A DNA stretch of 64,000 nucleotides, taken from NCBI GenBank assembly GCA_964631325.1, contig CAZVWJ010000012.1:224-64223 (forward strand), given 5' to 3'. The notes below the pieces were generated by a model. That model was not told where the DNA came from, made no database searches, and saw nothing but the letters and a program-made list of their open reading frames with translations. Position numbers and translations under genes: made by a program. This DNA is from an uncultured bacterium. GTDB taxonomy: Bacteria > T1Sed10-126. Of this stretch, positions 1,477 through 38,632 are shown one piece after another (the stretch's first letter is position 1; each line of letters begins with the position of its first letter).

Positions 1477-1493
1477 TCTCCCACTCTATTCAA

Positions 1494-2534: not shown

Positions 2535-2605
2535 GATAATTCACCGAAAATTTTTCGATATTTTGCAATAACTTAAAAAGTAAAAGTACGAGACCCGGTT
2601 TTAGA
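2535..2605. repeat. ~60-bp direct repeat (copy B) immediately 3' of the KAP NTPase gene
   Basis: see copy A; ~85% identity. Confidence 0.7.
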
Positions 2606-2660
2606 AACAAATTGAGATATATCTTCTAAATCCATATTTTTCTCCATTTACATAAAAACT

Positions 2661-10000: not shown

Positions 10001-12182
10001 CTAGCATTCGCAACGTCTCGCGAGGCCTCCCACTGTTAAAAGCCCCCGCCACAGCCATTCTTTTAGCGCTATCAGTCATAACCTTTTCAATCAACTTTTG
10101 TTTATGATCATAAACAAATTCCCAGTCTCCCTGCTGGGCCTTCAACTCGCATAATTCATACAAAAAATCCCCTCGCTCTGTTTCTTTATATTTGGATTCG
10201 AGATATTCTTCCAAATCCTCATACTTTTCGTCTTCATAACCTTTTCGGTGATAAGACATATTTTGAATCTGTTCAAAATAACTGAGATCTTGACATGACT
10301 GGACGGTATCTAAAGCCTTTTCATATTCTCCTTGGAGCAATAGAATTCTGGCTTTCCAATATTTCCATAATTCTTTTGAATCCCCACCAAATATTTCTTT
10401 ACTTTCTTCATGCAGCCAAATGGCATCATCTATATTCCCTCTAGATAATAAAGCAACCAATAATCCAATTACTTCATTAACCCCAGGAGAATATTTTTCA
10501 AAACGCTGAATTACTTCATTAGCGGTAAGTTGGTTAACTACATTAAAATCTCTGGCTGTCCCCCAAATAAAAGCCCCATAATGAATCGAATTTTCGGAAA
10601 GCAATTTTTCAGCGTAATTATTAGCACTTTCTGTATTGCCGGGGTCTTCCAACTCATCTAAATTTGCCTTACAGGCTAATTTCCAGACTTCTAAATCTAC
10701 TGCCTCTCTTTCATTTTCAGTTGCAATATCAATCAATTCATCAAAAGTATCCTGGGCTTCCTGAAGTCTCTCTCGAATATCTTCGTCTTTGATTAGATAA
10801 TGTCTGAAGACAGGCATGGGGGGATTTAAAGGCTGATCTGGGAGAATGACAGGAGAGAAAGCTGAATGATAATAAATTATTCCTTTAGTCCGCTGAACTT
10901 CAAAATTGTCTGGCTCCTCTTCCGCAATTTTCTCGATTTGGTCATATGCCTTTCCTAAATTTTCTTGTAATAAAAATGCTATAGCTTTTAATCGCTTGGT
11001 TTCATAATTTAAGGTGAACTCATCTTCAAATTCATCAAGGCGACTCCAAAAATCTTTGATTTCATTCATTTCCAACAAACAGGCAAGTATTAAATTACCT
11101 GCTTCTATAGTGGAGGGGTCTTCTAGTTGATTTAAAACCTTGCTAGGATTTTCTTCATGGTATAGTACTACAAATTTTTCGTATTCAGTGTTTATATCAA
11201 CCTGTAATTGATCAATTTCTTCGAAAATTTTTCTTGCTTCCGGAAAATCTTCCTCAATAGTGGCTTTTAAAACAGCTTCAATTTTTAATATTTCTGCTCT
11301 AACTTCATTATCATTTAGAAATTTTTCATTTTCTCGGAGGTTTAAAATTTGTTCATATGCACGTCGTGTCCTACCTTGTTTTAGAAGATTTTTCACCTCC
11401 TGAAGTTCTTCAAAAGTCATTTCGGTAATTCTTTCGAAAGCTTGCTCGTTAACAATATTTTTCTTTTTTAATTTTTGTTTTAAGTTTCTATCTGTATTTG
11501 GATTTTCCTCACAAATTACATTAATCCAATGATCTGCCGGTTCCAAAAAACGAGCAACTATATGAGGATGGTCCATCAATTTATCTTTTAATTCTCTAGC
11601 TGACCAAACTTCAAAATCAATTCCATGTTTTTTTAATCTTTGTATTTGGTTTTCAATTACATCATGCACTTGAGTCCGTTGGATATCACTCGCTAAAAAT
11701 AAAATAATTTTCTTAACTCGCTCAAAATCCCAATGATCTTCATTTTCTTCTAATATTCGATTCACAACATTTGTAATAAGTTTTGGTTCTACTTCTACAT
11801 GAGATTTACATTCACCTAAAATAATCTGGTCTTCTGAAGTAATTGCTTTAAGATCAACTCCAAAATCAGATTGGCCTTCTATACCATATAACTCACAAAA
11901 CTCGATATGATTCTCTTTTCTAAGAATATTTAGACAAAGTTTTTCAAATCGTTTTGGAGTCAATTGATAAAAAGGGGGGGATAAATCTAGTTTTATATTC
12001 GGGGTAATAAACTCAGCTTCATCATAAATTGGAAAATCCTCAGGATTAGATTTAGAGTTCTGAAAAACTTTACTACTTGCCTTTTTGTTATAATTTTTAT
12101 CCATTTTTTTCACCTCAGGATCACTGTTATGATCTTTTCTTTTCAATTTTTTCATTGAGTTCACTAAGCGACTCACATTCAT
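9981..12182 (-). CDS. Mrr-like PD-(D/E)xK restriction-endonuclease domain fused to C-terminal TPR/helical repeats
   Basis: N-terminal FEKLCLNILRKENHIEFCELYGIEGQSDFGVDLKAI...ILGECKSHVE matches Mrr_cat (D...E-x-K) pattern; remainder TPR-like; true start may be the internal MDKNYNKK. Confidence 0.65.
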   Translation of the reverse strand: MNVSRLVNSMKKLKRKDHNSDPEVKKMDKNYNKKASSKVFQNSKSNPEDFPIYDEAEFITPNIKLDLSPPFYQLTPKRFEKLCLNILRKENHIEFCELYGIEGQSDFGVDLKAITSEDQIILGECKSHVEVEPKLITNVVNRILEENEDHWDFERVKKIILFLASDIQRTQVHDVIENQIQRLKKHGIDFEVWSARELKDKLMDHPHIVARFLEPADHWINVICEENPNTDRNLKQKLKKKNIVNEQAFERITEMTFEELQEVKNLLKQGRTRRAYEQILNLRENEKFLNDNEVRAEILKIEAVLKATIEEDFPEARKIFEEIDQLQVDINTEYEKFVVLYHEENPSKVLNQLEDPSTIEAGNLILACLLEMNEIKDFWSRLDEFEDEFTLNYETKRLKAIAFLLQENLGKAYDQIEKIAEEEPDNFEVQRTKGIIYYHSAFSPVILPDQPLNPPMPVFRHYLIKDEDIRERLQEAQDTFDELIDIATENEREAVDLEVWKLACKANLDELEDPGNTESANNYAEKLLSENSIHYGAFIWGTARDFNVVNQLTANEVIQRFEKYSPGVNEVIGLLVALLSRGNIDDAIWLHEESKEIFGGDSKELWKYWKARILLLQGEYEKALDTVQSCQDLSYFEQIQNMSYHRKGYEDEKYEDLEEYLESKYKETERGDFLYELCELKAQQGDWEFVYDHKQKLIEKVMTDSAKRMAVAGAFNSGRPRETLRMLGEYYDE

Positions 12183-12564
12183 CAGCCAATTGTTTTAATT
12201 CTTCCCAATCTGTATCTTGAACAGTCTCTTCTGTATCACTTGGATTTGAATCCGGGGTATTATCTGGAGCGAAATTCTGTCTTAGTTCTTCCCCAAACCA
12301 ATTCTCGGTAAATAAAAAAATATTTACTTGGGGTGTATCTTTTCCATCGCTTTTTAAAAAAGGTATAGAACTCCAATCTAAACGAGCTTTCCCAACTTTA
12401 CATAACCAGAAAATTAAGCAAAAAACTAATAAATGAATAAATAAATGTGAAAACCAACGAATATTGTATCCTTCTGGATAAACAAGATCGCTATAGTAAA
12501 ACCTCACCTCATCAATAAATCGAGGTAAACCAAATTGCTTATACTTAATCGTATTGATCCTCAA
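12127..12564 (-). CDS. small membrane protein (one TM helix, acidic tail)
   Basis: 145-aa ORF with hydrophobic segment HLFIHLLVFCLIFWLC; overlaps MTase stop by 20 nt and next gene start. Confidence 0.35.
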   Translation of the reverse strand: MRINTIKYKQFGLPRFIDEVRFYYSDLVYPEGYNIRWFSHLFIHLLVFCLIFWLCKVGKARLDWSSIPFLKSDGKDTPQVNIFLFTENWFGEELRQNFAPDNTPDSNPSDTEETVQDTDWEELKQLADECESLSELNEKIEKKRS

Positions 12565-15500
12565 TTATTTGAATTTCTTCATTTGTGAGTCCATATAGCT
12601 CATAAACTATCCGATCAATTTCTTGGTCGGTTTCTTCGATTTTTTTCTCAATGTTTAATTTTTCGGAGTCCGATGTTACTTGAGTAAGACTTCCATGTAA
12701 ACTGAGCATCCTATCGGCTTTTTCGGCGATTTGATCGCGCAGTTCAACTTCAGTTGAGTTCGATTCATCGATTTGTTTGATGGGGAGTTGCTCCATGTAT
12801 TGGTAGATATAGCGAAGATATCCGCCTCGGTAAGATGAACAGATGTTTTCGTAATAAAAGGCAAGTAGTTTCGAGTTGAGTAAACCCAGTAAATAAGGAT
12901 CGTCACTGGATATTATGTAAGCCGTGTTTACACAATAATAATTGCCATCTCGATCCAGTGTGAAGTTACCCCTTTCAGCAATATCTGGAACTATTAATTT
13001 GGGCTTTTCAAATTCATCGTAATAATCGCAGGCTCGAAGTTCCCACCAGTATTCTCCTTGATCGTATCGTTCCCGAGCTCTTTCCTCATATTGACTCAGG
13101 TATCCGGTAATAGCTGGATACTGTTGCTTCAACCATTGCCATTCATCCGCGTCTTTTGGAGCATTTTCATTAGTCCAACCGTTGGGGAAGAAAATTAGAT
13201 AATGTTCTGGTGACAAGGATGCATATCGCTTGATATCGCGGCCCTTCAAAAATGGTTTAAGCCGTTCATCGCTGGCTGGGTTTTTATCAATTAATTCCTG
13301 ATACTTAGCCGAGTCAATTACAAAGGCTTTGTTCAATCCTGTTTTAATCCCGTAGTGAATTCCACCATTTACGACTTTTTTTAAAGGCTTGGACTGATCC
13401 CTTACTTTACGAAGCAAATCTTGAGTTTCTTTACCTACAAGTGTCCAACTTCCTCCCGTTAGGAATTCCTTATTCATAGGAAATGAATCTTCCCGGAAGA
13501 GAACAGATAAATCTCCGAGAATATCGTCTTGTTCATTGGCAACGTCGAGGGCGGTGAATTCACCATTAAAAGAAGTCGGAGACATCATCAGAATACAGGG
13601 GTAAGTCGTGGCGGTATCGAAAACTGTATAATCGCCGAAATTGATCAGTTTTCGAATCGGTTGGTCATCGAGCCAACTGCGAAGATTCTTTCCGTATTTG
13701 GCTCGCATCCATTTGTTGGACACAATGTAGCAGAAGGTCCCCTCCTGGTTCAATAACTTGTAACCACGTTCGATGAAATAAGTGTAGAAATCCGCGGTGC
13801 CATAATAAGTTTCATAATGATTCTTAAAATATTCTTTCTGTTCTCCCAAGTCCTCCTGTCTGACGTAGGGCGGATTAGCGATAACTACATCAAACCCGTT
13901 ATTTTCCAGGAAGACTTCGGTGAAGTAGAGTTCCCAGAGGAAGAACGGGCGACGGCGGGACTGTTTTATTTCTTCGAGTTCTTTTAGTTTTTCTTCTTCG
14001 TCGTGTTCCTCCAGGGTGGCTTCAATGAGTTCCCAGTGTAGCTCTTCAATTTCTTCGCGTAATTCTCGTTTTTCGCTCTTGCGGACGGCATCCGCGAATT
14101 CTTTTTGAAGTTGATCCAATTCTTCTGCCTTTTTACGGGCCTCACTGTGGCGCTGGAAGAGGTCAGGGGTTCCATGCTGGTTTTGTTGTTCACTCTCTAA
14201 ATTTCCTATTTCTTTTTTTATCTTTTCCAATTCATTGTCCAAACGTTTCTGTTCGGCTGATGGAAGATTACCGGACTGGTGGCGGTCTATATATTGTTTT
14301 TCAAGGGACCGTTGTTTCTCTTTTAATTCTCGGCGGCGGGCTTCGGTATCGGCTTGCCGGTCACGGATAAGTTCGGAGTCAAACAGTTCAATCCCCTCGT
14401 ATTCCTCGACCAGCGAGTCGCCCTGCATAATTCGGTACTCGAGGTTGGGTAGGGGTTTAATCTCTTCATAGTCTTCCTCATCAACGACCAGGGAGAGCCA
14501 GAGGCGGAGCTTGGCGATATCAACGGAACTGGGATCAATATCAACGCCGTAGAGATTATGTAAAATAGCGTGGCGCTTGAGCTCATACTGGCTGCGATCT
14601 TCACCGGAATCAAGATAGGGAGTGAGCAGGCGGCGCAGTTTGACGATCTCCTGCATCAGGCCGACCGGGAAGGCGCCGGAACCGATTGCCGGGTCGCAGA
14701 CTTTAATCTCGGCAAGTAGCGCGTCAATTTTGTTGACCCGCTCACGGATAGAATCGGGAATTTTTTGTTGGCGTTCGGCAAGATCACCTTCCGCAACGGC
14801 CGCTTCGTGTTGAAGCAGAAGATCACCGTGTTCAACGACTAATCTTATGTCCGCTTCAGGAATGTCCCCCCCATCTGTATCTTCCCCCACCGGGGGGGAA
14901 GAGCTTTCACCCTCACCCCGGCCCTCTTCCATCGAGGGAGAGGGAGTTTGGTCCCCCTCATCCGCCCTGCGGGCACCTTCTCCCACCGGGGGAGAAGAAT
15001 CACCCCCATCTTGCTCTTCCCCCATCGAGGGGGAAGAGCTTTCACCCCCACCTGTGTCCTCCCCCGTCGAGGGGGAGGAGATGTTTTTGCTATCTGGGGA
15101 GAGATTATTTTTATTGTTCAAATGTGTGGAGAGGTAATTGACCAGGCTTTCCTGGCACATGTAGTGGACTATTTCGCGGGGGGTGTAGAAAGCGCCCTTT
15201 GATTTGCGGTCCTCGACGTCAAGCATGCGCTCGTAGACCTTGCCCAGCATCTCGGGATCAACGGCGACTTCTTTTTCCAGCGGTTCATCCTCGCGGATGG
15301 TGAAGTTGTAGCGGTCGAAGGTGTCAAAAATCTCGGCGAAGAGTTCGTCGGGGAGGGTGAGTTCAGTCTCGTCCCAGGCGTAGTTATTTATCGGTTCAAA
15401 TAAACCGCCGTTTAAAAAGGGAATGCGGCACTCCAGTTTTGAATCCATGGCGCCCCGGCCGCGGTCGACGGCAAGCGAGTTGTAGAACAGGTGTTCGAGC

Positions 15501-16402: not shown

Positions 16403-16454
16403 GTGAAACTCCTCAAAACCATTATTGGACAGGATTTACAGGATAAACAAGATC

Positions 16455-16540
16455 TTAATTTAACGCAAAGGCGCAGAGGCGCAAAGAAGTATCTCCGTGG
16501 GGACGGAGGTTGATTATTGATTAACTTTTTTAGCTCGCGG
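16455..16540. repeat. dispersed intergenic repeat cluster (aacgcaaaggcgcagaggcgcaaag + ggggacggaggttgattattgattaacttttttagctcgc)
   Basis: same motifs recur at ~21980-22155, 28329-28354, 28707-28750 and partially at 25558-25600. Confidence 0.75.
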
Positions 16541-16658
16541 GTGGGCGCTGATTAGAGATTAACTCCTCTGCACTATTGCGCGATTATACAAATTTTGCGT
16601 CCGAGCCTGCTGAAGTTTTTTTCGGAGACAATCATTCATTAGATTCTCAAACATGTAA

Positions 16659-16900
16659 TCAGTCAAGCTGAAGTTCCCAGTGCCCCTCTTTTCTGCCGCC
16701 AATACGTTCTAATACATCCTTTTCTCTCAATTTCCTGATATTTTTCTGCACAGCTCGCTGACTTATTCCTATATCTTCAGCAAGTTCCGAAATCGTTGTT
16801 TCTTTATTTTGTCCAATCAATCCCAGAATTTTCTTCTCACTTTTCCCGAATCTTTCCCCGTTAAGTACCCTGGCATGTATTCCATCAAGTATCCTGTATC
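16659..16900 (-). pseudogene. 3'-terminal winged-helix fragment of an AlbA_2-family gene (no start codon, upstream in-frame stop)
   Basis: translates to ..GKSEKKILGLIGQNKETTISELAEDIGISQRAVQKNIRKLREKDVLERIGGRKEGHWELQLD*, aligning with the C-terminus of the 505-aa AlbA_2 protein at 25693-27210; stop and 3' flank (~85 bp) are identical to that gene. Confidence 0.55.
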
Positions 16901-21648: not shown

Positions 21649-21733
21649 ATTTCCAACCTCAAATATATTTTTAAAATGATTAGCTCTTCATGCCTAACTC
21701 CGTAAGAACAACATTCAATATTTTAACATCGGA

Positions 21734-22160
21734 AAAAGCTAAATCGAGGATTCTGTCACGGTAAATCAATCTTACCTGATTTTTGGGGGAATTTTAATTA
21801 TTTTTATTGAGGGACAAAGGGGAGCGTGATGGGGGGACCGTCGCAGAGGCGACATAGCGCAGAGGCGGAGAGGCGAAAGAGCATTAAACCTCGTGATGAG
21901 GGAAAATCAAAGGCAACGGCAAAGTCAAAATGGATTGCCGGGTCAAGCCCGGCAATGACGTCGTTGTATGGATTTCCGTGGGGACGGAGGTTGATTATTG
22001 ATTAATTCTTTTAGCTCGCAGATTAGCGCAGAAAGTGCGGATTTATTATTTTTGTAAATCAAGTTCAAAACCTTCGGATCCTCAGATTAGTGGGATTACA
22101 CGGATTGAAGTTCAAATTCAAAGGCAAGATAACGCAAAGGCGCAGAGGCGCAAAGGAAAT
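21734..22160. repeat. composite intergenic repeat block (several repeat families, hairpin ccgggtcaagcccgg)
   Basis: 21734-21810 recurs at 27408-27482; 21860-21960 recurs at 28550-28644; 21980-22020 and 22131-22155 recur at 16461-16536 and 28329-28750. Confidence 0.75.
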
Positions 22161-22412
22161 TCAATTGAGTAATTGAAAAATTTTAACCCTTAGTTTTTCT
22201 ACTTCCAGAACATCTTGAACATTATTTTGTTGACGAATTTGTTCCAGGGAGAGCAAAGTTTCCAGTTTTCAGTTTAAAGTTTCAAGTTACAGGTTGAAAT
22301 TCAAAATCAATAAGGATTTTGTTCAGGCCGAAGAACTTATTGAAAATTTTACCGAGCATGGGTTCCCCCCAACATACTCCGATTATATTTTCCGCTTCCA
22401 AACCAAGAGCTG

Positions 22413-23171
22413 TTAACCGTTCAACTGGAGGCCTTCTTTGACGCCGAACTTCTTCTCCAGTTCCGGTTCTTTTTCGCCTTTGACGATAATGAGCAGATAG
22501 TCCCCGGTTTCCAGTGTCTCCGAACCCTCCGGATTCTTGATCAGTTCCCGCCCACCGTCACCGTTAGCCTTACTCATCCCCACACAGACACAATTTTGCT
22601 CGTTTTTAATTTCCCAGAAAGCTTCGTCGTAGGTAGAATTAAGATACTTGCATTCCTCAGAAATTAAATACTGCTGTAAATCATAATCCTCATCCCGCTG
22701 GGTACCCCGTAAGATATCATCCTCGAAGAGAGCCACGTCAGACTCATACATATAACTCGTGACCAACTTAGAAGCAACTACAAACTTGGAGACAGCGTAA
22801 GAGACACCGGCATTTTTAAAGGTCTGCTCCAGGTCGTCGTTTTCAAGCACAGCTACGTATTCCAGTTCTTTGTAGTGTTTTTTCATATTCAAAATAGCGA
22901 TCAGGCTCTCATCGTCGGTGTCAAGATTAACAAACACCCGGAGCGAAGCTTCTATGTTAAACTCGGAAAATTTTTCAAATCCGGTTAACTCCCGGTGAAC
23001 AGCGTGGACGTATTCTCCGGGAAATTCTTCTTCTATTTCATCCACGAACTCCGGCTCCTTGGCGACTACAACAACGTTACGGCGCGACGCCACTAAACGC
23101 TGGATAATCATTTCACTGAATGCATCCCAGCCTAAAATAACGACGTGATTTTCAAGTTCTTGCGGTAACAT
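22413..23171 (-). CDS. soluble RCK/TrkA-N + TrkA-C domain protein (K+ channel regulatory subunit)
   Basis: HVVILGWDAFSEMIIQRLVASRRNVVVVAKE Rossmann-like RCK start; no TM segments; 18 bp downstream of the channel gene. Confidence 0.65.
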   Translation of the reverse strand: MLPQELENHVVILGWDAFSEMIIQRLVASRRNVVVVAKEPEFVDEIEEEFPGEYVHAVHRELTGFEKFSEFNIEASLRVFVNLDTDDESLIAILNMKKHYKELEYVAVLENDDLEQTFKNAGVSYAVSKFVVASKLVTSYMYESDVALFEDDILRGTQRDEDYDLQQYLISEECKYLNSTYDEAFWEIKNEQNCVCVGMSKANGDGGRELIKNPEGSETLETGDYLLIIVKGEKEPELEKKFGVKEGLQLNG

Positions 23172-23189
23172 TGAATTCCCTCCGGAAAA

Positions 23190-24245
23190 TCAGAATTTAA
23201 TTCCCTGACTGACTCCAAAAAAAGCTTCAATTTCCTCCATGTTTTCGCCCGTAGCAATTAAAACGAGATAATCTCCCGCCTGCACCTTTACATCGTCAGG
23301 CGGGAGTTTTAACAGCCGGTTATCTTCGGGCTGATTCTTACGGAGCCCGACAACCGGTTCACCATATTCCTCGTAAAAATTTTTAAAAACTTCTCCATAA
23401 TTTCTGTCGTCAAATTCACAATTTTCCGTAACCTGGTATTGCTGGAACTCATGGTCACCATTTTGAGAAATAGAGGCCATTAAATCATTCAGATAATCCG
23501 CCACGTCCGGCTCAAAAATGTAGCTGGCAATCACGCCGGAGGCCGCATCATGTCTGGAAATAACATAGTCAGCACCATTTTCCTTCAGCGTGTCCACCAG
23601 CTCAACATTTTCAACAGTAACAACGTACTCCGGCTGAGAGAATTCGTCCCGAAGATTCAACAAGCCAACCAGAGTATCAGTATCACTATCTGGACTGATC
23701 AGGACCCGGGCCGCTTCATTGACATTGACTTTGGAATAATTATCAAAGTTGTCAAGATCCGTGAACAGGGAAAAAACTGTGTCCCGGTCGAACTCGTTGC
23801 GGATTAAATCAATACTATCCCGGCTATCAGTGATGATCGCCACTTTTTTGCCGGAAAGGACTAACTCCCGGACCACGAGCTCGGTAAAATTATTCCAGCC
23901 GATGACTACGAAATGGTTTACAAAATCAGTGCCATCGTAACCGAGCCGTTTGCGTTCCCGATACTCGGCAAACTTATCCCCGATTTTGCCAACAAGGAAG
24001 CCCAAGAAGCCAAGGCTGGCGAGCACGAAAGCGCCACCGATTATTCTACCGTAGAGCGAGACCGGAAAGTAGTCCCCGTAGCCAACCGTGGTCAGGGTGA
24101 CCAATGAATACCAGAAAGCGTCTCCAAAATTTTGGATATTGGAATCAGCATAAGGTTGTTCAACCACAACCAGCAGTTTCAACAGTAGGAAATAAGCAAC
24201 CACACCCAGAATGCAGTAAAGGGTTCTCTTTACTTTTTTATCCAT
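23190..24245 (-). CDS. RCK-gated K+ channel (2TM pore + TrkA-N/TrkA-C), MthK-like
   Basis: selectivity filter TLTTVGYGDYFP between two TM helices; RCK domain VVIGWNNFTELVVRELVLSGKKVAIITDS. Confidence 0.8.
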   Translation of the reverse strand: MDKKVKRTLYCILGVVAYFLLLKLLVVVEQPYADSNIQNFGDAFWYSLVTLTTVGYGDYFPVSLYGRIIGGAFVLASLGFLGFLVGKIGDKFAEYRERKRLGYDGTDFVNHFVVIGWNNFTELVVRELVLSGKKVAIITDSRDSIDLIRNEFDRDTVFSLFTDLDNFDNYSKVNVNEAARVLISPDSDTDTLVGLLNLRDEFSQPEYVVTVENVELVDTLKENGADYVISRHDAASGVIASYIFEPDVADYLNDLMASISQNGDHEFQQYQVTENCEFDDRNYGEVFKNFYEEYGEPVVGLRKNQPEDNRLLKLPPDDVKVQAGDYLVLIATGENMEEIEAFFGVSQGIKF

Positions 24246-24246
24246 T

Positions 24247-25323
24247 TTAGAATCGCAGCCCCTGTTCTACCTGGAAATAATTTCCAACCGCGCCCATTAT
24301 TTCATTGGTCACAATTAGAACCAAATAATCCTCCGCCTGGATCGTATCTGCGTCAGAAGGTAAAATTTCTAAATGTCGTTCTTCGTCCCCGGGCCGGCTA
24401 TAACCAACCAGCAAACAGCCAAGCTCATTGTACAAGAATTCAAATGCTTCTCCGCAATTTTCACCAACCAATTCACAGTCAGGTTTCACATAATATTGTT
24501 GCAATTCATGATCCCCTTCCGATTCTACGGAGGTCATAAGGTCATTGAGGTAAGCGGCCGCATCCGGTTCAAAAATATTACTGGCAATCAGCCCGGAAGC
24601 AGCGCGGTAACGTGAAACTACATAGTCAGCTCCATTTTCTACCAGAGTCTCCTCCAAATCCTCATTACGCACGGTAACTACGTATTCGGGGCCGTCATAG
24701 TCATCCTTCAAATTCAAAAGGGTGACCAGTGTATCGGAGTCACTGCCGGGACTGACCAGAACCCGGCTGGCAGCTGAAATATTCACCTTTTCAAATCTTT
24801 CGTAATTATCCAACTCCGTAAATAAAACAAAAACATCCTCGGTCCCGTACTCATCGTAAATAAGGTCAATATCGGCTTTGCGATTGGTGACGACTGCAAC
24901 TTGCTGATTGGATTTTAGCAGCTGTTTTACAACCAGCTCAGTAAATTGATTCCAGCCGATAATTAAATGGTGATTTTCAAAATCAGTTCCCGCGTAACCG
25001 AGCCGACGATATTCACGATACTCATTGAACATGTCACCAATTTTACCAATAAACACACCGAGCATCCCCAGACCGGTAAGGACAAAGACCACGGAAATAA
25101 TTTTGCCGAAAAAAGTCGAAGGAAAGGTCATGAAATTACCAGCGCTCCCCAAGCCGGTCGGATTAAGAACTACATACCAGAGGGAATCAACCAGAGTGGC
25201 ATCAGGCTGGGAAGGAGAGAATTGTTCGAATTGAAAATAAGTATAGACGAGTAACACGTAGACAACCAGGACAAGGACAGCATACAGACAATATTTGAGC
25301 CACTTTTTATGCTGAGGGGACAT
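24247..25323 (-). CDS. paralogous 2TM+RCK channel subunit with degenerate selectivity filter
   Basis: same architecture as neighbour but filter region reads VVLNPTGLGSAGNF instead of TVGYGD; 1-bp intergenic gap to the next gene. Confidence 0.7.
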   Translation of the reverse strand: MSPQHKKWLKYCLYAVLVLVVYVLLVYTYFQFEQFSPSQPDATLVDSLWYVVLNPTGLGSAGNFMTFPSTFFGKIISVVFVLTGLGMLGVFIGKIGDMFNEYREYRRLGYAGTDFENHHLIIGWNQFTELVVKQLLKSNQQVAVVTNRKADIDLIYDEYGTEDVFVLFTELDNYERFEKVNISAASRVLVSPGSDSDTLVTLLNLKDDYDGPEYVVTVRNEDLEETLVENGADYVVSRYRAASGLIASNIFEPDAAAYLNDLMTSVESEGDHELQQYYVKPDCELVGENCGEAFEFLYNELGCLLVGYSRPGDEERHLEILPSDADTIQAEDYLVLIVTNEIMGAVGNYFQVEQGLRF

Positions 25324-25557
25324 ATTTAATGCTCCCTTCGGAAGCCAAAATCATTCACCTATGTGAACGGTCTAGCAGACATCAGTCAAAAGGCAGACAA
25401 CTCGTGGAGCGTTCCGGTTTACAAACTGATTCCTCTTTATAGAGTCACTCTTCTTTGGATTTTATACTCTACCTGAATATTTTAGATAAAAATTCAAATA
25501 AGGAAAACACTTTCTTGGTTGGGGGATTGAGGAAAAATTTCAAATTCCTGTCAGAAG

Positions 25558-25690
25558 CTCGCAGATTGGGGCGGGTGGACGCAGATTAATGATTAATTTC
25601 TCTGCACTATTGCGGGATTATACAAATTTCGTGTTCGAGCCTGCTGAAGTTTTTTATGGAGACAATCATTCATTAGATTCTCAAACATGT
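25558..25690. repeat. intergenic repeat (ctcgcag...tctgcactattgcgggattatacaaattt...) shared with 16536-16660
   Basis: near-identical block continuing into the 3' end of the AlbA_2 gene. Confidence 0.7.
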
Positions 25691-25692
25691 AA

Positions 25693-27210
25693 TCAGTCAA
25701 GCTGAAGTTCCCAGTGCCCCTCTTTTCTGCCTCCAACTCGCTTTAAAATTTCTTCCTCCCTGAGTTTTTTAATATTCCTCTCTACTGACCGCGGGCTTAT
25801 TCCAATGTTATTTGCGAGCTTTTGAATGGTAATGTTTTCATTCTCGTATATTTCCTGGCATATCTCTCTTTGGTTTTGATTCATCCTAGCCCAATTTTTC
25901 CCAACCTTTTCCGACGCTTTTCCGACGCTTTTCCGACGCTTTTCCGAACCTGTGTCCACACCTTTAAATTCAGAATGAATGGGTAGGGTTGCAAGAAAAT
26001 AAGTGCGATTTCTGTCCGTTTCAAAGCGGGCCTCCGGAGAACCATTTTGTTGCATGTTTCTCCGGATCTTGGGGACGCCTGTGCTGCGGCCCTCGGAGAG
26101 GTCCAGTTCCTTGAGGAAATCACCAATTCTGCGATTGCGGTAGCGCCGGGCGATGACTTTTCCCTTCTCAAAATCCTCCATATTTACGGAGCGAACCGGT
26201 CCCGGAATACTCAGGACATTGATTTCGTTCGGGGATATCCGGACCTCGATCGGTTCCCGTTCCTGGTAACTCCGGTGGTAGGCCGCGTTAACGATAACCT
26301 CTTCCAGGGCGGGATAAGGATAGTTGTAGAATCGTTCGGCTTCGGCCCGGTCATCGTGCTTAATGACCCGTTCCTCGATAACGGAGTTTTTCAAGTATGA
26401 GAGGGTTTGCTGGATCTGATGGTCCAGCGGCCCCTGGAAAATCTTCTCGTCGAAGACGTCTCCGCCTTCCTGGTCGCGGAAGTGGACTACTTCAATTTGT
26501 GCTGTCGGAAAGTATTCGTGCGGTTCCGGCGTGAAGAAAAGAAGGCCAACGTTCCGGGGAGCAAGATGGGAGTTTATTTTATCGGCAATTTCCATCTGCT
26601 GACAGAGTTCACCAAACGGAACGTCATCGATGTCCTCATACAGTTCACTATTGACTTTTTTCAGAAATTGGCGGATCAGTTGCTTGTCCAATTCATCAAC
26701 GTCAACACGCTGATTAATCCGATCATCAAAAGGTATGTTGGCTGTTAACTCAATTAACTCCGTCCGAGTTTGGCCGCGAGCTCTAACCGTTTCGGCCCCC
26801 TGGCGGATATAATATTCATAGTCGGGGTTGTCACCAAAAGAATCTGGTGCCTGATAGGGACGATTCTGGCCGCCGGGAATCCAGATGACAAGGATGTTTT
26901 TGCCGTCGTAGACCTCAGGAACCGGGCGAGGTTGATACTCCGGATCGAGCCGTTTGCATTTTCCACGCAGTTCCTTCTGAATCTGCTCGATCTCGGTGGG
27001 ATTTAATCCGGCAGGAGGAAGCACCGGCTGACCGCTGTCACTGTCAATACCGAGAATTACGTAACCACCGCCCAGGTTGTGAAAATCATTAGCGAAAGCA
27101 CAGATTTCCTGGATGGTAGAAAGAGGCTGCCAGCCCTTTTTGAATTCGAGCCTTTCCGACTCCACCGCTCGGCCGTGGATAAGACCATCCAAGCTAACTG
27201 GTAAACTCAT
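25693..27210 (-). CDS. AlbA_2 (Schlafen-like) domain protein with HATPase_c_4-like and C-terminal wHTH (paralog of 16987-18402)
   Basis: LEFKKGWQPLSTIQEICAFANDFHNLGGGYVILGIDSDSGQPV; EEVIVNAAYHRSYQEREPIEVRI; C-terminal HTH ...GGRKEGHWELQLD. Confidence 0.7.
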   Translation of the reverse strand: MSLPVSLDGLIHGRAVESERLEFKKGWQPLSTIQEICAFANDFHNLGGGYVILGIDSDSGQPVLPPAGLNPTEIEQIQKELRGKCKRLDPEYQPRPVPEVYDGKNILVIWIPGGQNRPYQAPDSFGDNPDYEYYIRQGAETVRARGQTRTELIELTANIPFDDRINQRVDVDELDKQLIRQFLKKVNSELYEDIDDVPFGELCQQMEIADKINSHLAPRNVGLLFFTPEPHEYFPTAQIEVVHFRDQEGGDVFDEKIFQGPLDHQIQQTLSYLKNSVIEERVIKHDDRAEAERFYNYPYPALEEVIVNAAYHRSYQEREPIEVRISPNEINVLSIPGPVRSVNMEDFEKGKVIARRYRNRRIGDFLKELDLSEGRSTGVPKIRRNMQQNGSPEARFETDRNRTYFLATLPIHSEFKGVDTGSEKRRKSVGKASEKVGKNWARMNQNQREICQEIYENENITIQKLANNIGISPRSVERNIKKLREEEILKRVGGRKEGHWELQLD

Positions 27211-27582: not shown

Positions 27583-27843
27583 TCAGGCGAGTTTTTCTGT
27601 CTGGTGAGAAATAAATCTTAGGAAAATTCTCTGTTCTCTGTCAGTTAATTCTTCGAAACGTTCCTTGAATTCAGACGGAGAGAGATTATTTAGTTTTATA
27701 TCCCCCTGCAGAGCATCCACCGGAGCCGGCAGAGTCTCCGCGGTTACTTCTTCGTAGTTTTCCTCGAAGTAATTGGTTTCAGATTCTATCTGCTCCCGCT
27801 CATTCTCCCAGTAACGCACATCCGAATCATCAATCATCATCAA
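27583..27843 (-). CDS. small acidic hypothetical protein, possible antitoxin-like partner
   Basis: 86-aa ORF overlapping upstream small ORF by 4 nt (ATGA). Confidence 0.3.
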   Translation of the reverse strand: MMMIDDSDVRYWENEREQIESETNYFEENYEEVTAETLPAPVDALQGDIKLNNLSPSEFKERFEELTDREQRIFLRFISHQTEKLA

Positions 27844-28121
27844 CTCTCCCAGGCCGTGATAAAATCACTGGAGTAAAATTCTGTCTCCGGTAATAGTTTA
27901 ACACATACTGTTAGCCTTTTTCCACTTTGTGTTTGTCCTTTAACAACATAATCCGCGGCGGCTCTTCTTTTATTCTTATAAACTGAGCGGTTTGGGTCTT
28001 GTAAAACTTCAACAATATCCTCAGGCGTAATATGACCTCGCCCTGATTTTTTCCGGACGTGTTGTATCCGTTTTTGCCGAATTTTAACCGGCATAAAATC
28101 AATTTTCAAAATTAACTCCAC
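27840..28121 (-). CDS. small basic protein, DUF4258-like (toxin-like) candidate
   Basis: 93 aa; pattern H..KK.GRGHITPEDIVEVL....V......AADYVVKG....GKRLTVCVKL resembles DUF4258 small proteins; assignment from memory only. Confidence 0.35.
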   Translation of the reverse strand: MELILKIDFMPVKIRQKRIQHVRKKSGRGHITPEDIVEVLQDPNRSVYKNKRRAAADYVVKGQTQSGKRLTVCVKLLPETEFYSSDFITAWES

Positions 28122-28328
28122 CCTTTTGATATTTTATCCCCGGAAGCTTCCACAATTCCTTCCTAATTACTTTCTAAAATCGGGGCTCCCCCTGTAGATT
28201 AATTTTACCTGACTCCCAGAAAAATTTAAATTTTCACGGAAATAAATAATTTTTTAGAGGAACGAGGGGATAAAATCGTGCTGCGGGTTCTGAGTTGCGG
28301 GGTGGAGATCAAGTTCAACACCAAGGAT

Positions 28329-28750
28329 AACGCAAAGGCGCGGAGGCGCAAAGGGGAACGTGATTGAGTGACGAGGGGAAACCGTATACCGTGACGAGGT
28401 GATGGGGGAACTGTCGAAGAGGCGAAGATGCGAGCAGGCAGAGAGGCGGAAGAGCATTGAATCTCGTAATTGAGTAATTGAGTGATTGAATAAAAGCAAA
28501 GGCAAAGGGAACGCGGAAGAACTCGGAGAGGCGAAGATGCGAGCAGGCGGAGAGGCGAAAGAGCATTAAACCTCGTGATGAGGGAAAATCAAAGGGAACG
28601 GCAAAGTCAAAATGGATTGCCGGGTCGAGCCCGGCAATGACGGTCTTTCGTATTCTGAATTCCGGGAGCAAACCCCGGAATGACGTGCTTAATGCTGGAT
28701 CTTCTCGGGGGACGGAGTTTGATTATTGACTAACTTTTTTAGCTCGCAGT
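28329..28750. repeat. composite intergenic repeat block with internal ~115-bp duplication and hairpins (ccgggtcgagcccgg, ccgggagcaaaccccgg)
   Basis: gaggcgaagatgcgagcaggc(a/g)gagaggcg... unit appears twice (28395-28460, 28508-28575); 28550-28644 matches 21860-21960; 28707-28750 matches 16497-16536. Confidence 0.75.
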
Positions 28751-28899
28751 TTGGGGCGAATAGAGACAGCTTTTGGTCGAAATTTATGACTTTTTGTAAT
28801 ATTTGTAGGTTATAGCCTATTAATTCTTGACTTTTAAGTAGGTTTTAGCCTACACTTTTAGTGATTTAATGAAAGTTATAACCTAAGGAGCTGATATAT

Positions 28900-34110: not shown

Positions 34111-34130
34111 CTTCCCCCCTCAGGGGGGGA
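34111..34130. terminator. GC-rich hairpin (cccccc-tca-ggggggg) between convergent panD and carbamoyltransferase genes
   Basis: seen in sequence; convergent gene ends at 33901 and 34348. Confidence 0.35.
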
Positions 34131-34145
34131 TAATTTTTAGAGGGA

Positions 34146-34347: not shown

Positions 34348-35265
34348 TTAGTCGGTAGTGACGGTTCCGAGCAGATATTCGAGGATCGCCTGCTGGCTGT
34401 GCATCCGGTTCTCGGCCTGTTCAAAGATCCGGGAGTGCGGGCCGTCCATTACCTCATCGGTCAGCTCCTCGCCTCGATTGGCCGGCAGGCAGTGCAAGAC
34501 AATACATTTCTCTTTTGCCTGTTCAAGCAGAGACGAGTTAACCTGGTAAGGGCCAAAAGTCTCGTACCTCTGCTCGGCTTCGTCCTCGTCCCCCATACTG
34601 ACCCAGACATCCGTGTAGATGGCATCGGCCCCGCTAACTGCGGCCTGCGGATCAGTAGTTACCTCGATCCCGGAATTTCTTTCCTGCATTGGTTTTAGGA
34701 CTTCGTCTTTTGGAGCAAACTGTTGGGGGGCGCAGACAGTAAGGTCAAAACCAAATATTCCGGCGGCATTAATCAGGGAATGGCAGACATTATTTCCATC
34801 GCCGATATAAGTTAATTTAGCCTCTTTCAGACTGCCGGTAACTTCTTCCTGGATAGTCATCACGTCCCCCATTGCCTGGCAGGGGTGACAGAGATCTGTC
34901 AGGCCGTTAATCACGGGAATACTGGCACCGGCGGCAAGATCCTCAACATCACTGTGCTCAAAAGTACGGATCATCATAATATCCACGTAACGGGAGAGGG
35001 TTTTACCCGTATCGCCGATAGTTTCCCCACGAGAGAGCTGAAGTGTTTCTTCGCCCAGGTACATCGACGTTCCTCCCAACCGATGCATAGCCATGCGGAA
35101 GGAAACATTGGTCCGGGTAGAAGGTTTAGTGAAAATCATGGCCAGAGCTTGATCTTCACCCCGGCGTGGAGTTGCTCCCTGTTTTAGTTCAATGGCTCGA
35201 TCAATAATTGACTGCAGGGTTTCCCGTTCATAATCGGTCAGAATAACAAGATCACGTTTACTCAT
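34348..35265 (-). CDS. argF: ornithine carbamoyltransferase-family protein
   Basis: STRTR motif (FTKPSTRTNVSF), HPCQ, HCLP motifs; 305 aa. Confidence 0.75.
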   Translation of the reverse strand: MSKRDLVILTDYERETLQSIIDRAIELKQGATPRRGEDQALAMIFTKPSTRTNVSFRMAMHRLGGTSMYLGEETLQLSRGETIGDTGKTLSRYVDIMMIRTFEHSDVEDLAAGASIPVINGLTDLCHPCQAMGDVMTIQEEVTGSLKEAKLTYIGDGNNVCHSLINAAGIFGFDLTVCAPQQFAPKDEVLKPMQERNSGIEVTTDPQAAVSGADAIYTDVWVSMGDEDEAEQRYETFGPYQVNSSLLEQAKEKCIVLHCLPANRGEELTDEVMDGPHSRIFEQAENRMHSQQAILEYLLGTVTTD

Positions 35266-37594: not shown

Positions 37595-38632
37595 TTAACC
37601 CATCGAAAGAGCCATGTAAGCTTTCTGGACGTGAAGCCGGTTTTCGGCAATATCCAGAATAATCGAACGCGGGCCGGAAGCAACTTCATCAGTTGCTTCG
37701 TGGGTCCGGTCCACGGGCATTGGATGGGAGAAAACGCCATCGTCAGTAAGCTTCATCTTCTCCTCGTCACAGATCCAATCCGTGTATTGCATGGCCTTTT
37801 CGATCTCTTGTTCTTTCTTAAATTCACCGTCCTGGTAAGCATCTTCGCTCATCCAGTTCCGAGAATAAACAATGTCCGCGTCCTCGTAAACGTCGACGGG
37901 ATCGTGAGAAATGTCAAAACTGGTCCCGTTTTCCTTGCAGTTCTCCCGGGTCCAGCTGACAACCTCCTCGTCAAGCGCATAGCCTTTCGGGTAGGCGGTG
38001 CGGACATTCATTCCCAACCGGGAACTAATGAGCATACTTTCCTGGACGGAACAGTGGGACCGGGCAAGAGCGCCATGGCCCCAGACGTGGGCAATCGTCA
38101 AGTCCTCGAGATCTTTATCGAAGTGCTTGCGGTAGCCCATCACGTCGGCCAGGCCCTGGCAGGGATGAAACCTGTCGTGGGCAAAACTGACCAGCGGTTT
38201 ATCGAGGTACTTGTCGTATTCCCGAAGCACCTCGTCACCGCGTCCGTAGTAATCAATTTTATCCTCGAGCATGCGGATCCCGACACCGGTTCCGTAGCGG
38301 TTCATCACACCGGCGACGTCTTCAATCGTTTCTCCGCCCTGCTTTTCGGCGTCTTCGTCCAGGGATTCCAGACGCATACTGCCAGGTTCAATGTAGAGTC
38401 CGTGTCCGCCCAGCTCGGTCGCAGCAATCTCAAAGGACTGCCGGGTGCGGACGGAGGGATTGTAAAAGAACATGAGGAAGCTTCGGTCCTGGAGGACAGA
38501 ATTATACTTGTCCGAATACCGGTCCTGCTGCATTTCCTCAGCCAGTTCCACAATCTCCATAATTTCATCGCGAGAAATATCCTGAGTAGTAATCAGGGAC
38601 TTGCCGTTTAAACTGCTATCGCGCAAGGTCAT
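37595..38632 (-). CDS. YgeW-like (knotted) carbamoyltransferase paralog
   Basis: FYNPSVRTRQSFE, HPCQ motifs; 345 aa. Confidence 0.7.
   Translation of the reverse strand: MTLRDSSLNGKSLITTQDISRDEIMEIVELAEEMQQDRYSDKYNSVLQDRSFLMFFYNPSVRTRQSFEIAATELGGHGLYIEPGSMRLESLDEDAEKQGGETIEDVAGVMNRYGTGVGIRMLEDKIDYYGRGDEVLREYDKYLDKPLVSFAHDRFHPCQGLADVMGYRKHFDKDLEDLTIAHVWGHGALARSHCSVQESMLISSRLGMNVRTAYPKGYALDEEVVSWTRENCKENGTSFDISHDPVDVYEDADIVYSRNWMSEDAYQDGEFKKEQEIEKAMQYTDWICDEEKMKLTDDGVFSHPMPVDRTHEATDEVASGPRSIILDIAENRLHVQKAYMALSMG

What the first reader, a model, noticed from the sequence alone, without database searches (positions are those of the whole stretch)
22413..25323. Two tandem RCK-gated K+ channel genes (one with degenerate selectivity filter) plus a soluble RCK protein embedded in the defense island
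23190-24245 encodes a canonical 2TM channel with a TVGYGD filter and RCK domains. The upstream paralog 24247-25323 has the same fold, but its filter is replaced by NPTGLGSAGNF. A separate soluble RCK-domain protein follows. The cluster is flanked on both sides by island repeats and AlbA_2 genes. A heteromeric channel containing filter-dead subunits would be non-selective or regulatory. Ligand-gated channels are a known type of abortive-infection effector (membrane depolarisation), so this could be island cargo rather than housekeeping K+ transport.
Basis: partly seen in the sequence, partly recalled or inferred. Interest (0 to 1): 0.6.

Follow-up and report, generated by a model that had tools for sequence, protein, structure and literature searches.

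The report
Split RCK-gated channel with altered pore
Three co-transcribed genes in a salt-loving bacterium encode a normal potassium channel, a sister channel whose ion filter has been replaced by a different but strictly conserved loop, and a free regulatory domain that partners the altered channel; the cassette is rare, moves between genomes and often sits beside anti-virus genes, but its role is untested.

Summary
Three tightly packed minus-strand genes encode ALT (24247-25323, pore loop LNPTGLGSAGNF), CAN (23190-24245, TTVGYGD) and a soluble RCK protein, sRCK (22413-23171).

ALT is not filter-dead. It belongs to a rare clade (about 16 distinct proteins found) in which N-P-T-x-L is the most conserved stretch: 87% against 42% overall.

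ALT's constant partner is sRCK, not the canonical channel. The two genes are adjacent in every locus recovered, co-inherited (mirror-tree r=0.95), and naturally fused in two proteins. This points to an MthK-like channel whose gating ring is built from four tethered and four separately encoded RCK domains.

A K+-selective channel is usually adjacent but of varying type. Only this window has a 2TM-RCK paralog, and its RCK half matches ALT's.

The cassette is accessory. It occurs on Salinibacter ruber plasmid pSR76 and next to defence genes (PD-T4-3, KAP NTPase, HKD-Snf2, type IIG RM) in five of eight informative lineages. Two lineages show no defence context. No known defence model matches the three proteins.

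Physiological role is unresolved: ion adaptation about 0.4, abortive infection about 0.35.

The parts
24247..25323 (-). ALT: 2TM + RCK channel-like protein (358 aa) with a non-K+ pore loop; first gene of the operon
   Evidence: ORF. Pfam TrkA_N and TrkA_C, with Ion_trans_2 below its cut-off. 53% identical to CAN. MthK is the best solved relative. Orthologs.
25120..25179 (-). ALT pore helix end and pore loop, WYVVLNPTGLGSAGNFMTFP; W49, N54, T56, L58 and P68 are invariant in the clade
   Evidence: Translation. Alignment A3. Segment 54-58 has 87% mean pairwise identity against 42% for the whole protein.
23190..24245 (-). CAN: canonical 2TM + RCK K+ channel (351 aa); second gene, starting 1 nt after the ALT stop
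   Evidence: Its RCK and TM2 half nests in the ALT clade, while its TM1-pore half is of canonical type.
24072..24092 (-). K+ selectivity filter TTVGYGD of CAN
22413..23171 (-). sRCK: soluble RCK protein (252 aa, both RCK lobes, no TM); third gene
   Evidence: It falls in a distinct sRCK clade that mirrors the ALT clade. It is fused to ALT in P0017 and P0018.
23172..23189 (-). 18-nt spacer between CAN and sRCK, containing a GGAGG Shine-Dalgarno-like sequence
   Evidence: Sequence printed.
25324..25692 (.). Upstream intergenic region (presumed promoter region); its distal part belongs to island repeat copy C
   Evidence: The sigma-70 consensus scan was not above chance.
21649..22412 (.). Downstream intergenic region carrying composite island repeat copy B (about 21700-22160)

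Best explanation
The operon encodes an MthK-type, RCK-gated tetrameric cation-channel system in split form.

Shown:
- ALT and sRCK form a conserved two-gene unit.
- They are co-inherited and are fused into one polypeptide in some lineages.
- ALT keeps the 2TM/pore-helix/inner-helix/RCK scaffold.
- The K+ filter is replaced by an invariant N-P-T-x-L loop followed by a variable, 3-residue-longer Gly/Ser/Asp-rich stretch.

Inferred assembly: four ALT subunits plus four sRCK subunits build a hetero-octameric gating ring. This is the arrangement MthK reaches with an internally initiated soluble RCK, and BK and GsuK reach with fused RCK1-RCK2. Binding of a cytoplasmic ligand opens the inner-helix gate. 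That ligand is not the MthK Ca2+ site and not a GxGxxG nucleotide site.

Inferred permeation: the pore conducts but is not K+-selective. Most likely it is a short, NaK/CNG-like non-selective cation filter.

CAN supplies a K+-selective pore on an RCK/TM2 chassis that matches ALT's. It probably draws on the same sRCK pool and may co-assemble with ALT in this organism.

The host has an acidic proteome, which suggests a salt-in halophile (inferred). In such a cell, opening both pores would dissipate the K+ and Na+ gradients and the membrane potential.

The cassette is horizontally mobile accessory cargo. My estimates for what the gradient dissipation is used for are: accessory ionic or osmotic adaptation about 0.4, abortive-infection defence about 0.35, something else about 0.25.
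For: Architecture: Pfam domains. The AF2 model has TM1, pore helix, TM2 and an RCK fold, with mean pLDDT 75.6. The best PDB relatives are MthK, then GsuK and Slo1.

ALT-sRCK unit:
- Same-strand adjacency, from 17-nt overlaps to 113-nt gaps, in L002, L007, L009, L012, L013, L016, L017, L019, L024 and L026.
- Natural fusions P0017 (681 aa) and P0018.
- sRCK forms its own clade whose topology mirrors ALT's.
- Pairwise-identity matrices correlate at r=0.95, with 0 of 5000 Mantel permutations reaching that value.

Functional pore loop: invariant W49, N54, T56, L58 and P68 across sequences 35-53% identical. The NPTxL segment is 87% conserved against 42% overall. TM2 plus linker is 53-63% conserved.

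Shared chassis in the window: ALT against CAN is 62% identical in TM2 plus linker and 59% in RCK-N, but 28-29% in TM1 and pore. This RCK identity is higher than ALT shows to its own ortholog P0002, at 50%. CAN's RCK is sister to ALT's.

Accessory and mobile status:
- Located on S. ruber SP38 plasmid pSR76 beside a tyrosine recombinase.
- Only one locus found among 185,579 species genomes.
- Seven motif-bearing representatives among the top hits of 1.84 billion proteins.
- Acidic proteins, pI 4.2-4.8, in nearly all loci.
Against: - No experiment supports any of this. Stoichiometry, conduction and selectivity are inferred.
- The AF2 pore loop (residues 57-66) has pLDDT below 50, so the filter geometry is unknown.
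- Position 57 (G/N/A/D) and position 59 (G/T) vary, so even an NaK-like half filter is not guaranteed. ALT could be non-conducting.
- The RCK ligand is unknown.
- The window has two channel genes but one sRCK gene, so the assembly scheme here is ambiguous.
- L020 shows a canonical TVGYGD pore on the same chassis with an sRCK partner. The sRCK partnership is therefore not specific to the altered pore.
- The context tally rests on eight lineages and short contigs, with no proper background control. One of two canonical relatives examined also sits beside an integrase.
Confidence: 0.6

Rival explanations
1. Anti-phage abortive-infection cassette. The RCK ring senses an infection-induced change in ions or metabolites. 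It opens the non-selective ALT pore, together with the neighbouring K+ channel, and this depolarises the cell and stops phage replication.
For: Defence genes lie within one or two genes of the cassette in several independent lineages:
- Window: HKD-Snf2 (PADLOC C3a139, 7e-58), type IIG RM (6e-235), KAP NTPase and LmuB/SbcC-like genes.
- L013/14: PD-T4-3 (1.4e-42), a WYL regulator and a ZorB-like protein.
- L016: PD-T4-3 (4.5e-97).
- L007/8: DUF4357/RAMA and a KAP NTPase (PDC-S20, 1.5e-36).
- S. ruber pSR76: a PDC-S37 fragment, a Cas4-like DUF2779, a nuclease and DUF3578.

Ion-channel effectors are an established defence principle, for example RexB, the CBASS 2',3'-cGAMP-gated channel and Zorya (papers listed).
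Against: - None of the three proteins hits any PADLOC model, including candidate systems.
- No conserved infection sensor or signal-generating enzyme accompanies the cassette.
- Two lineages lack defence neighbours. L002/L010/L018 sits among FG-GAP/PKD, Rieske and glycosyltransferase genes. L026 sits beside a P-type ATPase and an M50 peptidase.
- No copy was found on phage or viral contigs.
- There is no literature precedent.
- The sample is small and there is no background control.
Confidence: 0.35
2. One reading: ALT and CAN are obligate partners in one heterotetramer, and the altered subunits make the pore non-selective or regulatory.
For: - The two genes are separated by 1 nt.
- TM2 plus linker is 62% identical and RCK-N 59% identical. 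This exceeds ALT's RCK identity to its own orthologs and is consistent with co-evolving interfaces.
- There is only one sRCK gene for two channel genes.
Against: - The tandem 2TM pair occurs only in this window.
- In L007, L009, L013, L016 and L024 the neighbour is a 6TM Kv-type channel without an RCK. In L002 and L011 it is a Kv-RCK protein with its own extra RCK partner, and the two are fused in L011.
- L026 has no K+ channel at all.
- The ALT-sRCK fusions indicate a self-sufficient ALT/sRCK unit.
Confidence: 0.2
3. ALT is a non-conducting pseudo-channel. It would act as a membrane-anchored RCK scaffold or sensor that regulates the adjacent K+ channel or sequesters sRCK.
For: - The G-Y-G signature is lost, and Ion_trans_2 scores below its cut-off.
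- Positions 57 and 59 of the loop vary.
- The pore loop is modelled with low confidence.
Against: - NPTxL is the most conserved stretch of the protein.
- The inner helix with its glycine hinge is conserved and nearly the same as in CAN. This is hard to explain unless the pore region still does something.
- L026 has ALT and sRCK with no channel to regulate.
Confidence: 0.15
4. Ordinary housekeeping K+ uptake or efflux genes that happen to lie in an island.
For: - CAN is a bona fide K+ channel.
- The wider canonical family is common in Bacteroidota and other chromosomes. L021 shows one as a single stand-alone gene.
- The composition of the three genes (GC 0.44-0.46, pI 4.3-4.4) resembles that of the host.
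Against: - The ALT/sRCK unit is extremely rare and patchy. It is found on a plasmid and at different loci in different lineages.
- In the window it sits between repeat-bounded cassettes of defence-type genes.
Confidence: 0.05

Closest known systems
MthK (Methanothermobacter Ca2+-gated K+ channel)
   Same: Same 2TM pore plus a single C-terminal RCK (TrkA_N and TrkA_C lobes). It is the best sequence and fold match in the PDB. It needs four extra soluble RCK subunits to complete an octameric ring. The first-strand motif GW(S/N/D) replaces GxGxxG.
   Different: MthK makes its soluble RCK from an internal start codon of the same gene, so the ring is homo-octameric. Here a diverged, dedicated gene (32% identical) supplies it. 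The Ca2+ triad D184/E210/E212 reads N(S)/T/R in ALT. ALT lacks the TVGYG filter.
GsuK and BK/Slo1 (tandem RCK1-RCK2 channels)
   Same: The gating ring is built from two non-identical RCK types per subunit. The natural fusions P0017 and P0018 (ALT-sRCK) and the 770-aa Kv-RCK-RCK protein of L011 reproduce that architecture.
   Different: In the window the two RCKs are on separate polypeptides. ALT's pore is not K+-type. No nucleotide-binding motif is present, whereas GsuK binds NAD+ and ADP (PMC3510474).
NaK (Bacillus cereus non-selective cation channel, filter TVGDGNF)
   Same: A 2TM K-channel fold in which the upper filter is remodelled while the residues aligned to the T and V of TTVG are kept (T56, L58). 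The window's ALT even ends in GNF.
   Different: The motif differs (NPTxL). The loop is 3 residues longer and variable. NaK has no RCK. The selectivity of ALT is untested.
CASTOR/POLLUX/DMI1 (plant nuclear RCK-gated channels)
   Same: These are a precedent for an RCK-ring-gated tetrameric channel of K-channel ancestry whose changed filter gives non-K+ selectivity. CASTOR is Ca2+-selective (PMC6697748, found).
   Different: The filter sequence is unrelated, the RCKs are tandem and fused, and the proteins are eukaryotic. No conserved acidic ring is visible in ALT's loop.
KtrAB / TrkAH K+ transporters
   Same: A membrane pore with degenerate P-loops is regulated by a separately encoded soluble RCK ring.
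   Different: KtrB and TrkH are 8TM proteins with four fused P-loops. KtrA and TrkA bind nucleotides through GxGxxG. NCBIfam TrkA models hit sRCK only far below their cut-offs.
Ion-channel effectors of anti-phage systems (RexB, the CBASS cGAMP-gated channel, Cam1, ZorAB)
   Same: If the defence reading is right, the output is the same: membrane depolarisation. The genes share a genomic habitat with defence islands.
   Different: There is no sequence or fold relationship and no PADLOC hit. No associated sensor or cyclase is present. A defence role is untested.

Membership tests
K+-selective P-loop channel | Signature filter T-[VI]-G-[YF]-G-D after the pore helix (tested on CAN) | tested here: met
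   TTVGYGD at 24072-24092. Ion_trans_2 scores 56.1 bits against a 22.5-bit cut-off.
K+-selective P-loop channel | Signature filter T-[VI]-G-[YF]-G-D after the pore helix (tested on ALT) | tested here: not met
   The loop reads LNPTGLGSAGNF. Ion_trans_2 scores 21.5 bits, below the 22.5-bit cut-off. All clade members lack GYG.
MthK-type RCK-gated channel | Two TM helices with a pore helix, followed by one RCK domain (TrkA_N plus TrkA_C) | tested here: met
   Pfam domains. AF2 secondary structure. MthK is the top match by HMM (8.7e-10) and by Foldseek (1.5e-19).
MthK-type RCK-gated channel | A soluble RCK copy that completes an octameric gating ring | tested here: inconclusive
   A soluble RCK exists, but as a separate diverged gene. 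Association is inferred from adjacency, co-phylogeny and fusions. Ring assembly was not tested.
MthK-type RCK-gated channel | Ca2+ site 1 triad D184/E210/E212 | tested here: not met
   In the profile alignment to MthK, these positions read N (S in the window), T and R.
KTN / nucleotide-binding RCK (TrkA, KtrA, GsuK) | GxGxxG dinucleotide-binding loop after the first strand | tested here: not met
   ALT has IIGWNQF, CAN has VIGWNNF and sRCK has ILGWDAF. TrkA NCBIfam scores are 15-31 bits against cut-offs of 289 bits or more.
Tandem-RCK channels (BK, GsuK) | RCK1 and RCK2 on one polypeptide | tested here: not met
   The two are split in the window. They are fused in relatives P0017 and P0018 and in the L011 770-aa protein.
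NaK-type non-selective channel | Filter TVGDG and non-selective monovalent cation conduction | not testable with these tools
   The sequence motif differs. Selectivity needs flux measurements or electrophysiology.
Known anti-phage defence systems (PADLOC 2.0) | Match to a defence-system protein model | tested here: not met
   No hit for ALT, CAN, sRCK or the S. ruber homologs.
Candidate defence system (guilt by association) | Most family members lie next to known defence genes | tested here: inconclusive
   Five of eight informative lineages do: the window, L007/8, L013/14, L016 and L024. L009 is weak. L002/L010 and L026 do not. The sample is small and there is no background control.
Candidate defence system | Protection against phage when present | not testable with these tools
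   This needs a phage challenge.

The most novel reading that the evidence does not exclude
ALT with sRCK, usually alongside a K+ channel, is a previously unrecognised, self-contained abortive-infection system of halophilic bacteria. A split RCK gating ring detects an infection-induced cytoplasmic change. It opens a non-K+-selective pore of K-channel ancestry, which collapses the very steep Na+/K+ gradients of salt-in cells.
Probability: 0.3. Interest if true: 0.85.

Novelty: new variant of a known kind. Interest (0 to 1): 0.6.

Why it matters
For channel biology:
- The N-P-T-x-L loop is a new, strictly conserved natural replacement of the K+ selectivity filter on an MthK scaffold. NaK and CASTOR were informative for selectivity for the same kind of reason.
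- The family captures split, duplicated and fused states of the RCK pair side by side. These are ALT with sRCK, ALT-sRCK fusions, Kv-RCK with an extra RCK, and their fusion. Together they form a natural series for how hetero-octameric BK-type gating rings arose from MthK-type rings.

For microbial genomics:
- This is an unannotated mobile cassette. Databases call the proteins 'NAD-binding protein' or 'voltage-gated potassium channel'.
- It recurs in defence islands of halophiles and is present in a culturable organism (S. ruber SP38, plasmid pSR76). The defence-versus-ion-adaptation question can therefore be tested directly.

Tried and rejected
- Phage records and IMG/VR viral contigs contain no relative. 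A phage-borne origin is rejected.
- The genome-contig scan gave one locus and the metagenome scan four.
- There are no tRNA or Rfam features in the window. Promoter and terminator scans were at chance level.
- The host could not be identified. All looked-up window proteins, including the ornithine carbamoyltransferase-type (OTCase) protein, are singleton clusters without names. I infer only that it is a bacterium (GGAGG ahead of sRCK) with an acidic, halophile-type proteome.
- The GIY-YIG gene adjacent in L013 and L016 first looked like a possible fourth component. It is the known single-gene system PD-T4-3 and is absent from the window. I treat it as a neighbour, not a part.
- The 248-aa gene next to canonical relative P0007 is not an sRCK.
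- Canonical channels P0216, P0217 and P0220 scored well against the sRCK profile. They are ordinary 2TM-RCK channels, not tethered sRCK partners.
- An alignment meant for modelling the fused P0017 placed the sRCK rows on the first RCK domain (A5), so I did not submit it. A second structure job was not used.
- There is no sign of recent gene conversion between ALT and CAN at the DNA level. The best repeat is 161 nt at 71%.
- Literature searches for the motif, and for RCK or K+ channels in phage defence, found nothing relevant. The S. ruber genome paper does not discuss these genes.
Full report
**1. The observation**

The region 22413-25323 holds three minus-strand ORFs with almost no spacing.
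- ALT (24247-25323, 358 aa) and CAN (23190-24245, 351 aa) both have two N-terminal hydrophobic helices around a pore helix, followed by TrkA_N and TrkA_C.
- CAN carries TTVGYGD and passes the Ion_trans_2 cut-off.
- ALT carries WYVVLNPTGLGSAGNFMTFP at the same place and falls just below the cut-off (21.5 against 22.5 bits).
- The two are 53% identical (E=4e-115).
- sRCK (22413-23171, 252 aa) has no membrane part and aligns over its whole length with the RCK half of CAN (32%, E=2e-51).
- The ALT stop and the CAN start are 1 nt apart. sRCK follows after 18 nt and is preceded by GGAGG.

The flanks are as described, with one qualification. One AlbA_2-wHTH gene is directly upstream. The other lies beyond an HKD-Snf2 helicase gene. 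The two AlbA_2 proteins are only distantly related. Composite intergenic repeats bound the cassettes of the island.

**2. The altered filter is conserved, not degenerate**

Homology searches recovered a small set of ALT orthologs that are 35-53% identical.
- In an exhaustive HMMER search of 1.84 billion representatives, seven of the top hits carry the altered loop. Everything below them is TVGYGD-type or a soluble RCK.
- Across eleven ALT sequences, W49, N54, T56, L58 and P68 are invariant, and L53 and P55 nearly so.
- The five residues N-P-T-x-L have 87% mean pairwise identity, against 42% for the whole protein. That makes them one of the most conserved stretches.
- The loop that follows is three residues longer than in K+ channels. 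It is variable and rich in Gly, Ser, Thr and Asp.
- TM2, with its glycine hinge, and the linker are well conserved and nearly the same as in CAN.

ALT is therefore a distinct clade under constraint in its pore region, not a decaying paralog. The clade is monophyletic in a neighbour-joining tree. No paper in the searchable library mentions the motif.

**3. The constant partner is the soluble RCK protein**

In every locus where sequence downstream of ALT is available, the next gene on the same strand is an sRCK of 250-307 aa.
- The loci are L002-L006, L010 and L018; L007 and L008; L009; L012; L013 and L014; L016; L017; L019 and L024; and L026.
- In L015 the sRCK appears split.
- Two proteins, P0017 (681 aa) and the truncated P0018, are ALT fused to an sRCK-type second RCK.
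- In an RCK-domain tree the sRCKs form their own clade, and its branching mirrors that of the ALT RCKs.
- The pairwise identity matrices of the two proteins over eleven loci correlate at r=0.95. None of 5000 label permutations reaches that value.

Adjacency, co-inheritance and Rosetta-stone fusion together make a physical ALT-sRCK complex the best-supported inference.

The closest solved relative is MthK (HMM E=8.7e-10, Foldseek E=1.5e-19). From established knowledge, its gating ring is made of four tethered RCKs and four soluble RCKs translated from an internal start. Here the soluble half is a separate, diverged gene. In the fusions the arrangement becomes the RCK1-RCK2 tandem of GsuK and BK.

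The MthK Ca2+ triad is not conserved and the GxGxxG nucleotide loop is absent. The ligand is unknown.

**4. The K+ channel neighbour varies**

A canonical K+ channel is adjacent in seven of eight lineages with enough flank, but its architecture differs.
- A 6TM Kv-type protein of 235-322 aa occurs in L007, L009, L013, L016 and L024.
- L020 also has a Kv-type neighbour, but no ALT; its middle gene carries a canonical pore (see below).
- A 6TM Kv-RCK protein (514 aa) plus a further 230-aa RCK-like protein occurs in L002 and L010. These two are fused into one 770-aa protein in L011.
- L026 has none.
- Only the window has a second 2TM-RCK gene, and it has no Kv gene.

A general ALT/K-channel heterotetramer is therefore unlikely.

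In the window, however, CAN is a mosaic.
- Its TM1 and pore are of canonical type: 28-29% identical to ALT, but 62-83% identical in the pore to other canonical channels.
- Its TM2-linker (62%) and RCK-N (59%) are closer to the window's ALT than ALT is to its own ortholog P0002 in RCK-N, 50%.
- Its RCK is sister to ALT's inside the ALT clade.

L020 shows the same chassis carrying a canonical pore, with an sRCK downstream.

I infer that the pore module has been exchanged on a common TM2-RCK chassis. CAN in the window probably uses the same sRCK, and ALT/CAN co-assembly here is possible but not shown.

**5. Genomic habitat**

The host proteome is strongly acidic in both island and housekeeping genes, with pI 4.3-5. 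Nearly all related cassettes are acidic too, across GC contents of 0.41-0.60. The family therefore looks largely confined to halophile-type, acidic-proteome organisms, though the habitats of most source samples were not checked.

The window from 1 to about 33 kb is an island of defence-type genes. It holds a KAP NTPase, a 1481-aa double-PIN-associated protein, a type IIG RM, an HKD-Snf2 helicase, two AlbA_2 genes, a DUF4258 gene with an overlapping small ORF, and SbcC/LmuB-like and phosphoesterase genes. Arginine-pathway and complex I genes follow.

Cassette neighbours elsewhere:
- PD-T4-3, a WYL regulator and a ZorB-like protein in L013/14.
- PD-T4-3 in L016.
- DUF4357/RAMA and a KAP NTPase in L007/8.
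- A weak SbcC/mad3-like hit in L009.
- On the 76-kb plasmid pSR76 of Salinibacter ruber SP38: a tyrosine recombinase, a PDC-S37 fragment, a Cas4-like DUF2779, a nuclease and DUF3578.

Two lineages differ. The L002/L010/L018 population has the cassette among FG-GAP/PKD surface proteins and Rieske, glycosyltransferase and glutaredoxin genes, on a 1.7-Mb contig. L026 has it beside an M50 peptidase and a P-type ATPase.

None of the three proteins matches a PADLOC model. No copy is on phage or viral contigs.

Of the two canonical relatives examined, both are single genes without an sRCK. One (L021) lies among ordinary genes. The other (L022) lies next to an integrase. The background rate of mobile neighbours is therefore not negligible, and I could not measure it.

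**6. Interpretation**

What is shown:
- A conserved, mobile two-gene unit (ALT and sRCK), usually accompanied by a K+ channel.
- An MthK-like scaffold.
- A constrained non-K+ pore loop.

What is inferred:
- A 4+4 hetero-octameric gating ring.
- Ligand-gated opening of a pore that is not K+-selective. It would resemble NaK, in that the residues aligned to the T and V of TTVG are retained (T56, L58) while the upper filter is remodelled. CASTOR shows that RCK-gated channels can change selectivity (PMC6697748).
- Dissipation of cation gradients when the pore opens together with the K+ channel.

The use to which the cell puts this is open.
- Ion adaptation (about 0.4). The family descends from ordinary K+ channels, appears restricted to halophiles, and has two non-defence contexts. 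From my own knowledge, K+ transport genes occur in hypersalinity islands of S. ruber.
- Abortive infection (about 0.35). The cassette lies next to defence genes in five of eight lineages, including two independent PD-T4-3 adjacencies, and it occurs on a plasmid.
- Against the defence reading: no sensor component is conserved and nothing has been tested.

**7. Verdict**

- 'Island cargo near defence genes' holds up comparatively.
- 'Filter-dead subunit in a heteromer with the canonical paralog' should be replaced. The better description is a conserved altered-pore channel whose obligate partner is the soluble RCK protein.

I rate it a new variant of a known kind, with moderately high interest. 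The main reasons are the new conserved pore motif, the split/fused RCK series, and the existence of a culturable host for testing.

Noticed in passing
window 16440-16830, 21700-22170, 25480-25870, 28300-28780: A family of composite intergenic repeats separates the island's gene cassettes. A core of about 190 nt (GGCGGAGAGGCGAAAGAGCATTAAACC...GGGGACGGAGGTTGATTATTGATTAA...TTTTAGCTCGCAG) is nearly identical at 21.84-22.03 and 28.52-28.76 kb. None was seen in the housekeeping half of the window. They could be recombination or regulatory modules.
   Followed up: partly
window 16540-16830 versus 25575-25870: A stretch of about 165 nt is nearly identical between the two places, apart from a handful of mismatches. 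It includes the last codons of the AlbA_2 gene 25693-27210. At 16.7-16.8 kb it continues at lower identity, which suggests a remnant 3' end of a third AlbA_2-like gene and past recombination between cassettes.
   Followed up: partly
window 14865-15080 (also 34111-34132, 60389-60522): GC-rich palindromic repeats (CTTCCCCCACCGGGGGGGAAGA and variants) lie in frame inside the 1285-aa type IIG RM ORF. They sit between its N-terminal and methylase parts. Related copies occur in two intergenic places.
   Followed up: no
window 1-12200: A low-GC block (0.34-0.38, against 0.45-0.55 elsewhere) carries a KAP NTPase (967 aa), a 1481-aa protein with only an HTH_upstream_double_PIN hit, and a 733-aa protein with no confident domain. 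It is probably a separately acquired defence-like module.
   Followed up: no
L013 7857-15516: Downstream of PD-T4-3 lie a ZorB/MotB-like OmpA protein, then 493-, 139- (membrane) and 570-aa proteins and a >970-aa protein, none with a Pfam or PADLOC match. The 570-aa protein has a GGGTGAKV motif that resembles a tubulin/FtsZ signature by eye (untested). This may be an undescribed system.
   Followed up: no
L020 389-1453: A 2TM-RCK protein whose TM2 and RCK belong to the ALT subclade, but whose TM1 and pore are canonical (TLTTVGYGD). An sRCK follows it. This looks like a natural pore-module swap on the same chassis.
   Followed up: partly
L011 329-4683; L002 11943-14170: Both partner pairs are fused in one lineage: ALT-sRCK (681 aa) and Kv-RCK-RCK (770 aa). 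In L002 they are four separate overlapping genes.
   Followed up: partly
L007 722-1660, L013 3439-4317, L024 14543-15511, L020 6-263: The Kv-type channels next to the cassette share a C-terminal (I/H)(Q/H)(Y/H)CPHCG motif that looks like a zinc ribbon by eye. The S. ruber copy has GYGN instead of GYGD.
   Followed up: no
window 48890-50644: A 584-aa ORF combines an Endonuclease V domain with a poly(A) polymerase/CCA-adding head domain. This is an unusual fusion.
   Followed up: no
window 34348-35265, 37595-38632, 38635-39675: Three OTCase/ATCase-family paralogs lie within 5.5 kb, together with an amino-acid kinase and a PLP-dependent enzyme.
   Followed up: no
window 27583-28121: Two overlapping small ORFs, one of them DUF4258 (93 aa), sit between repeat elements and look like a toxin-antitoxin pair. 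A DUF4258 gene also appears near the cassette in L003.
   Followed up: no
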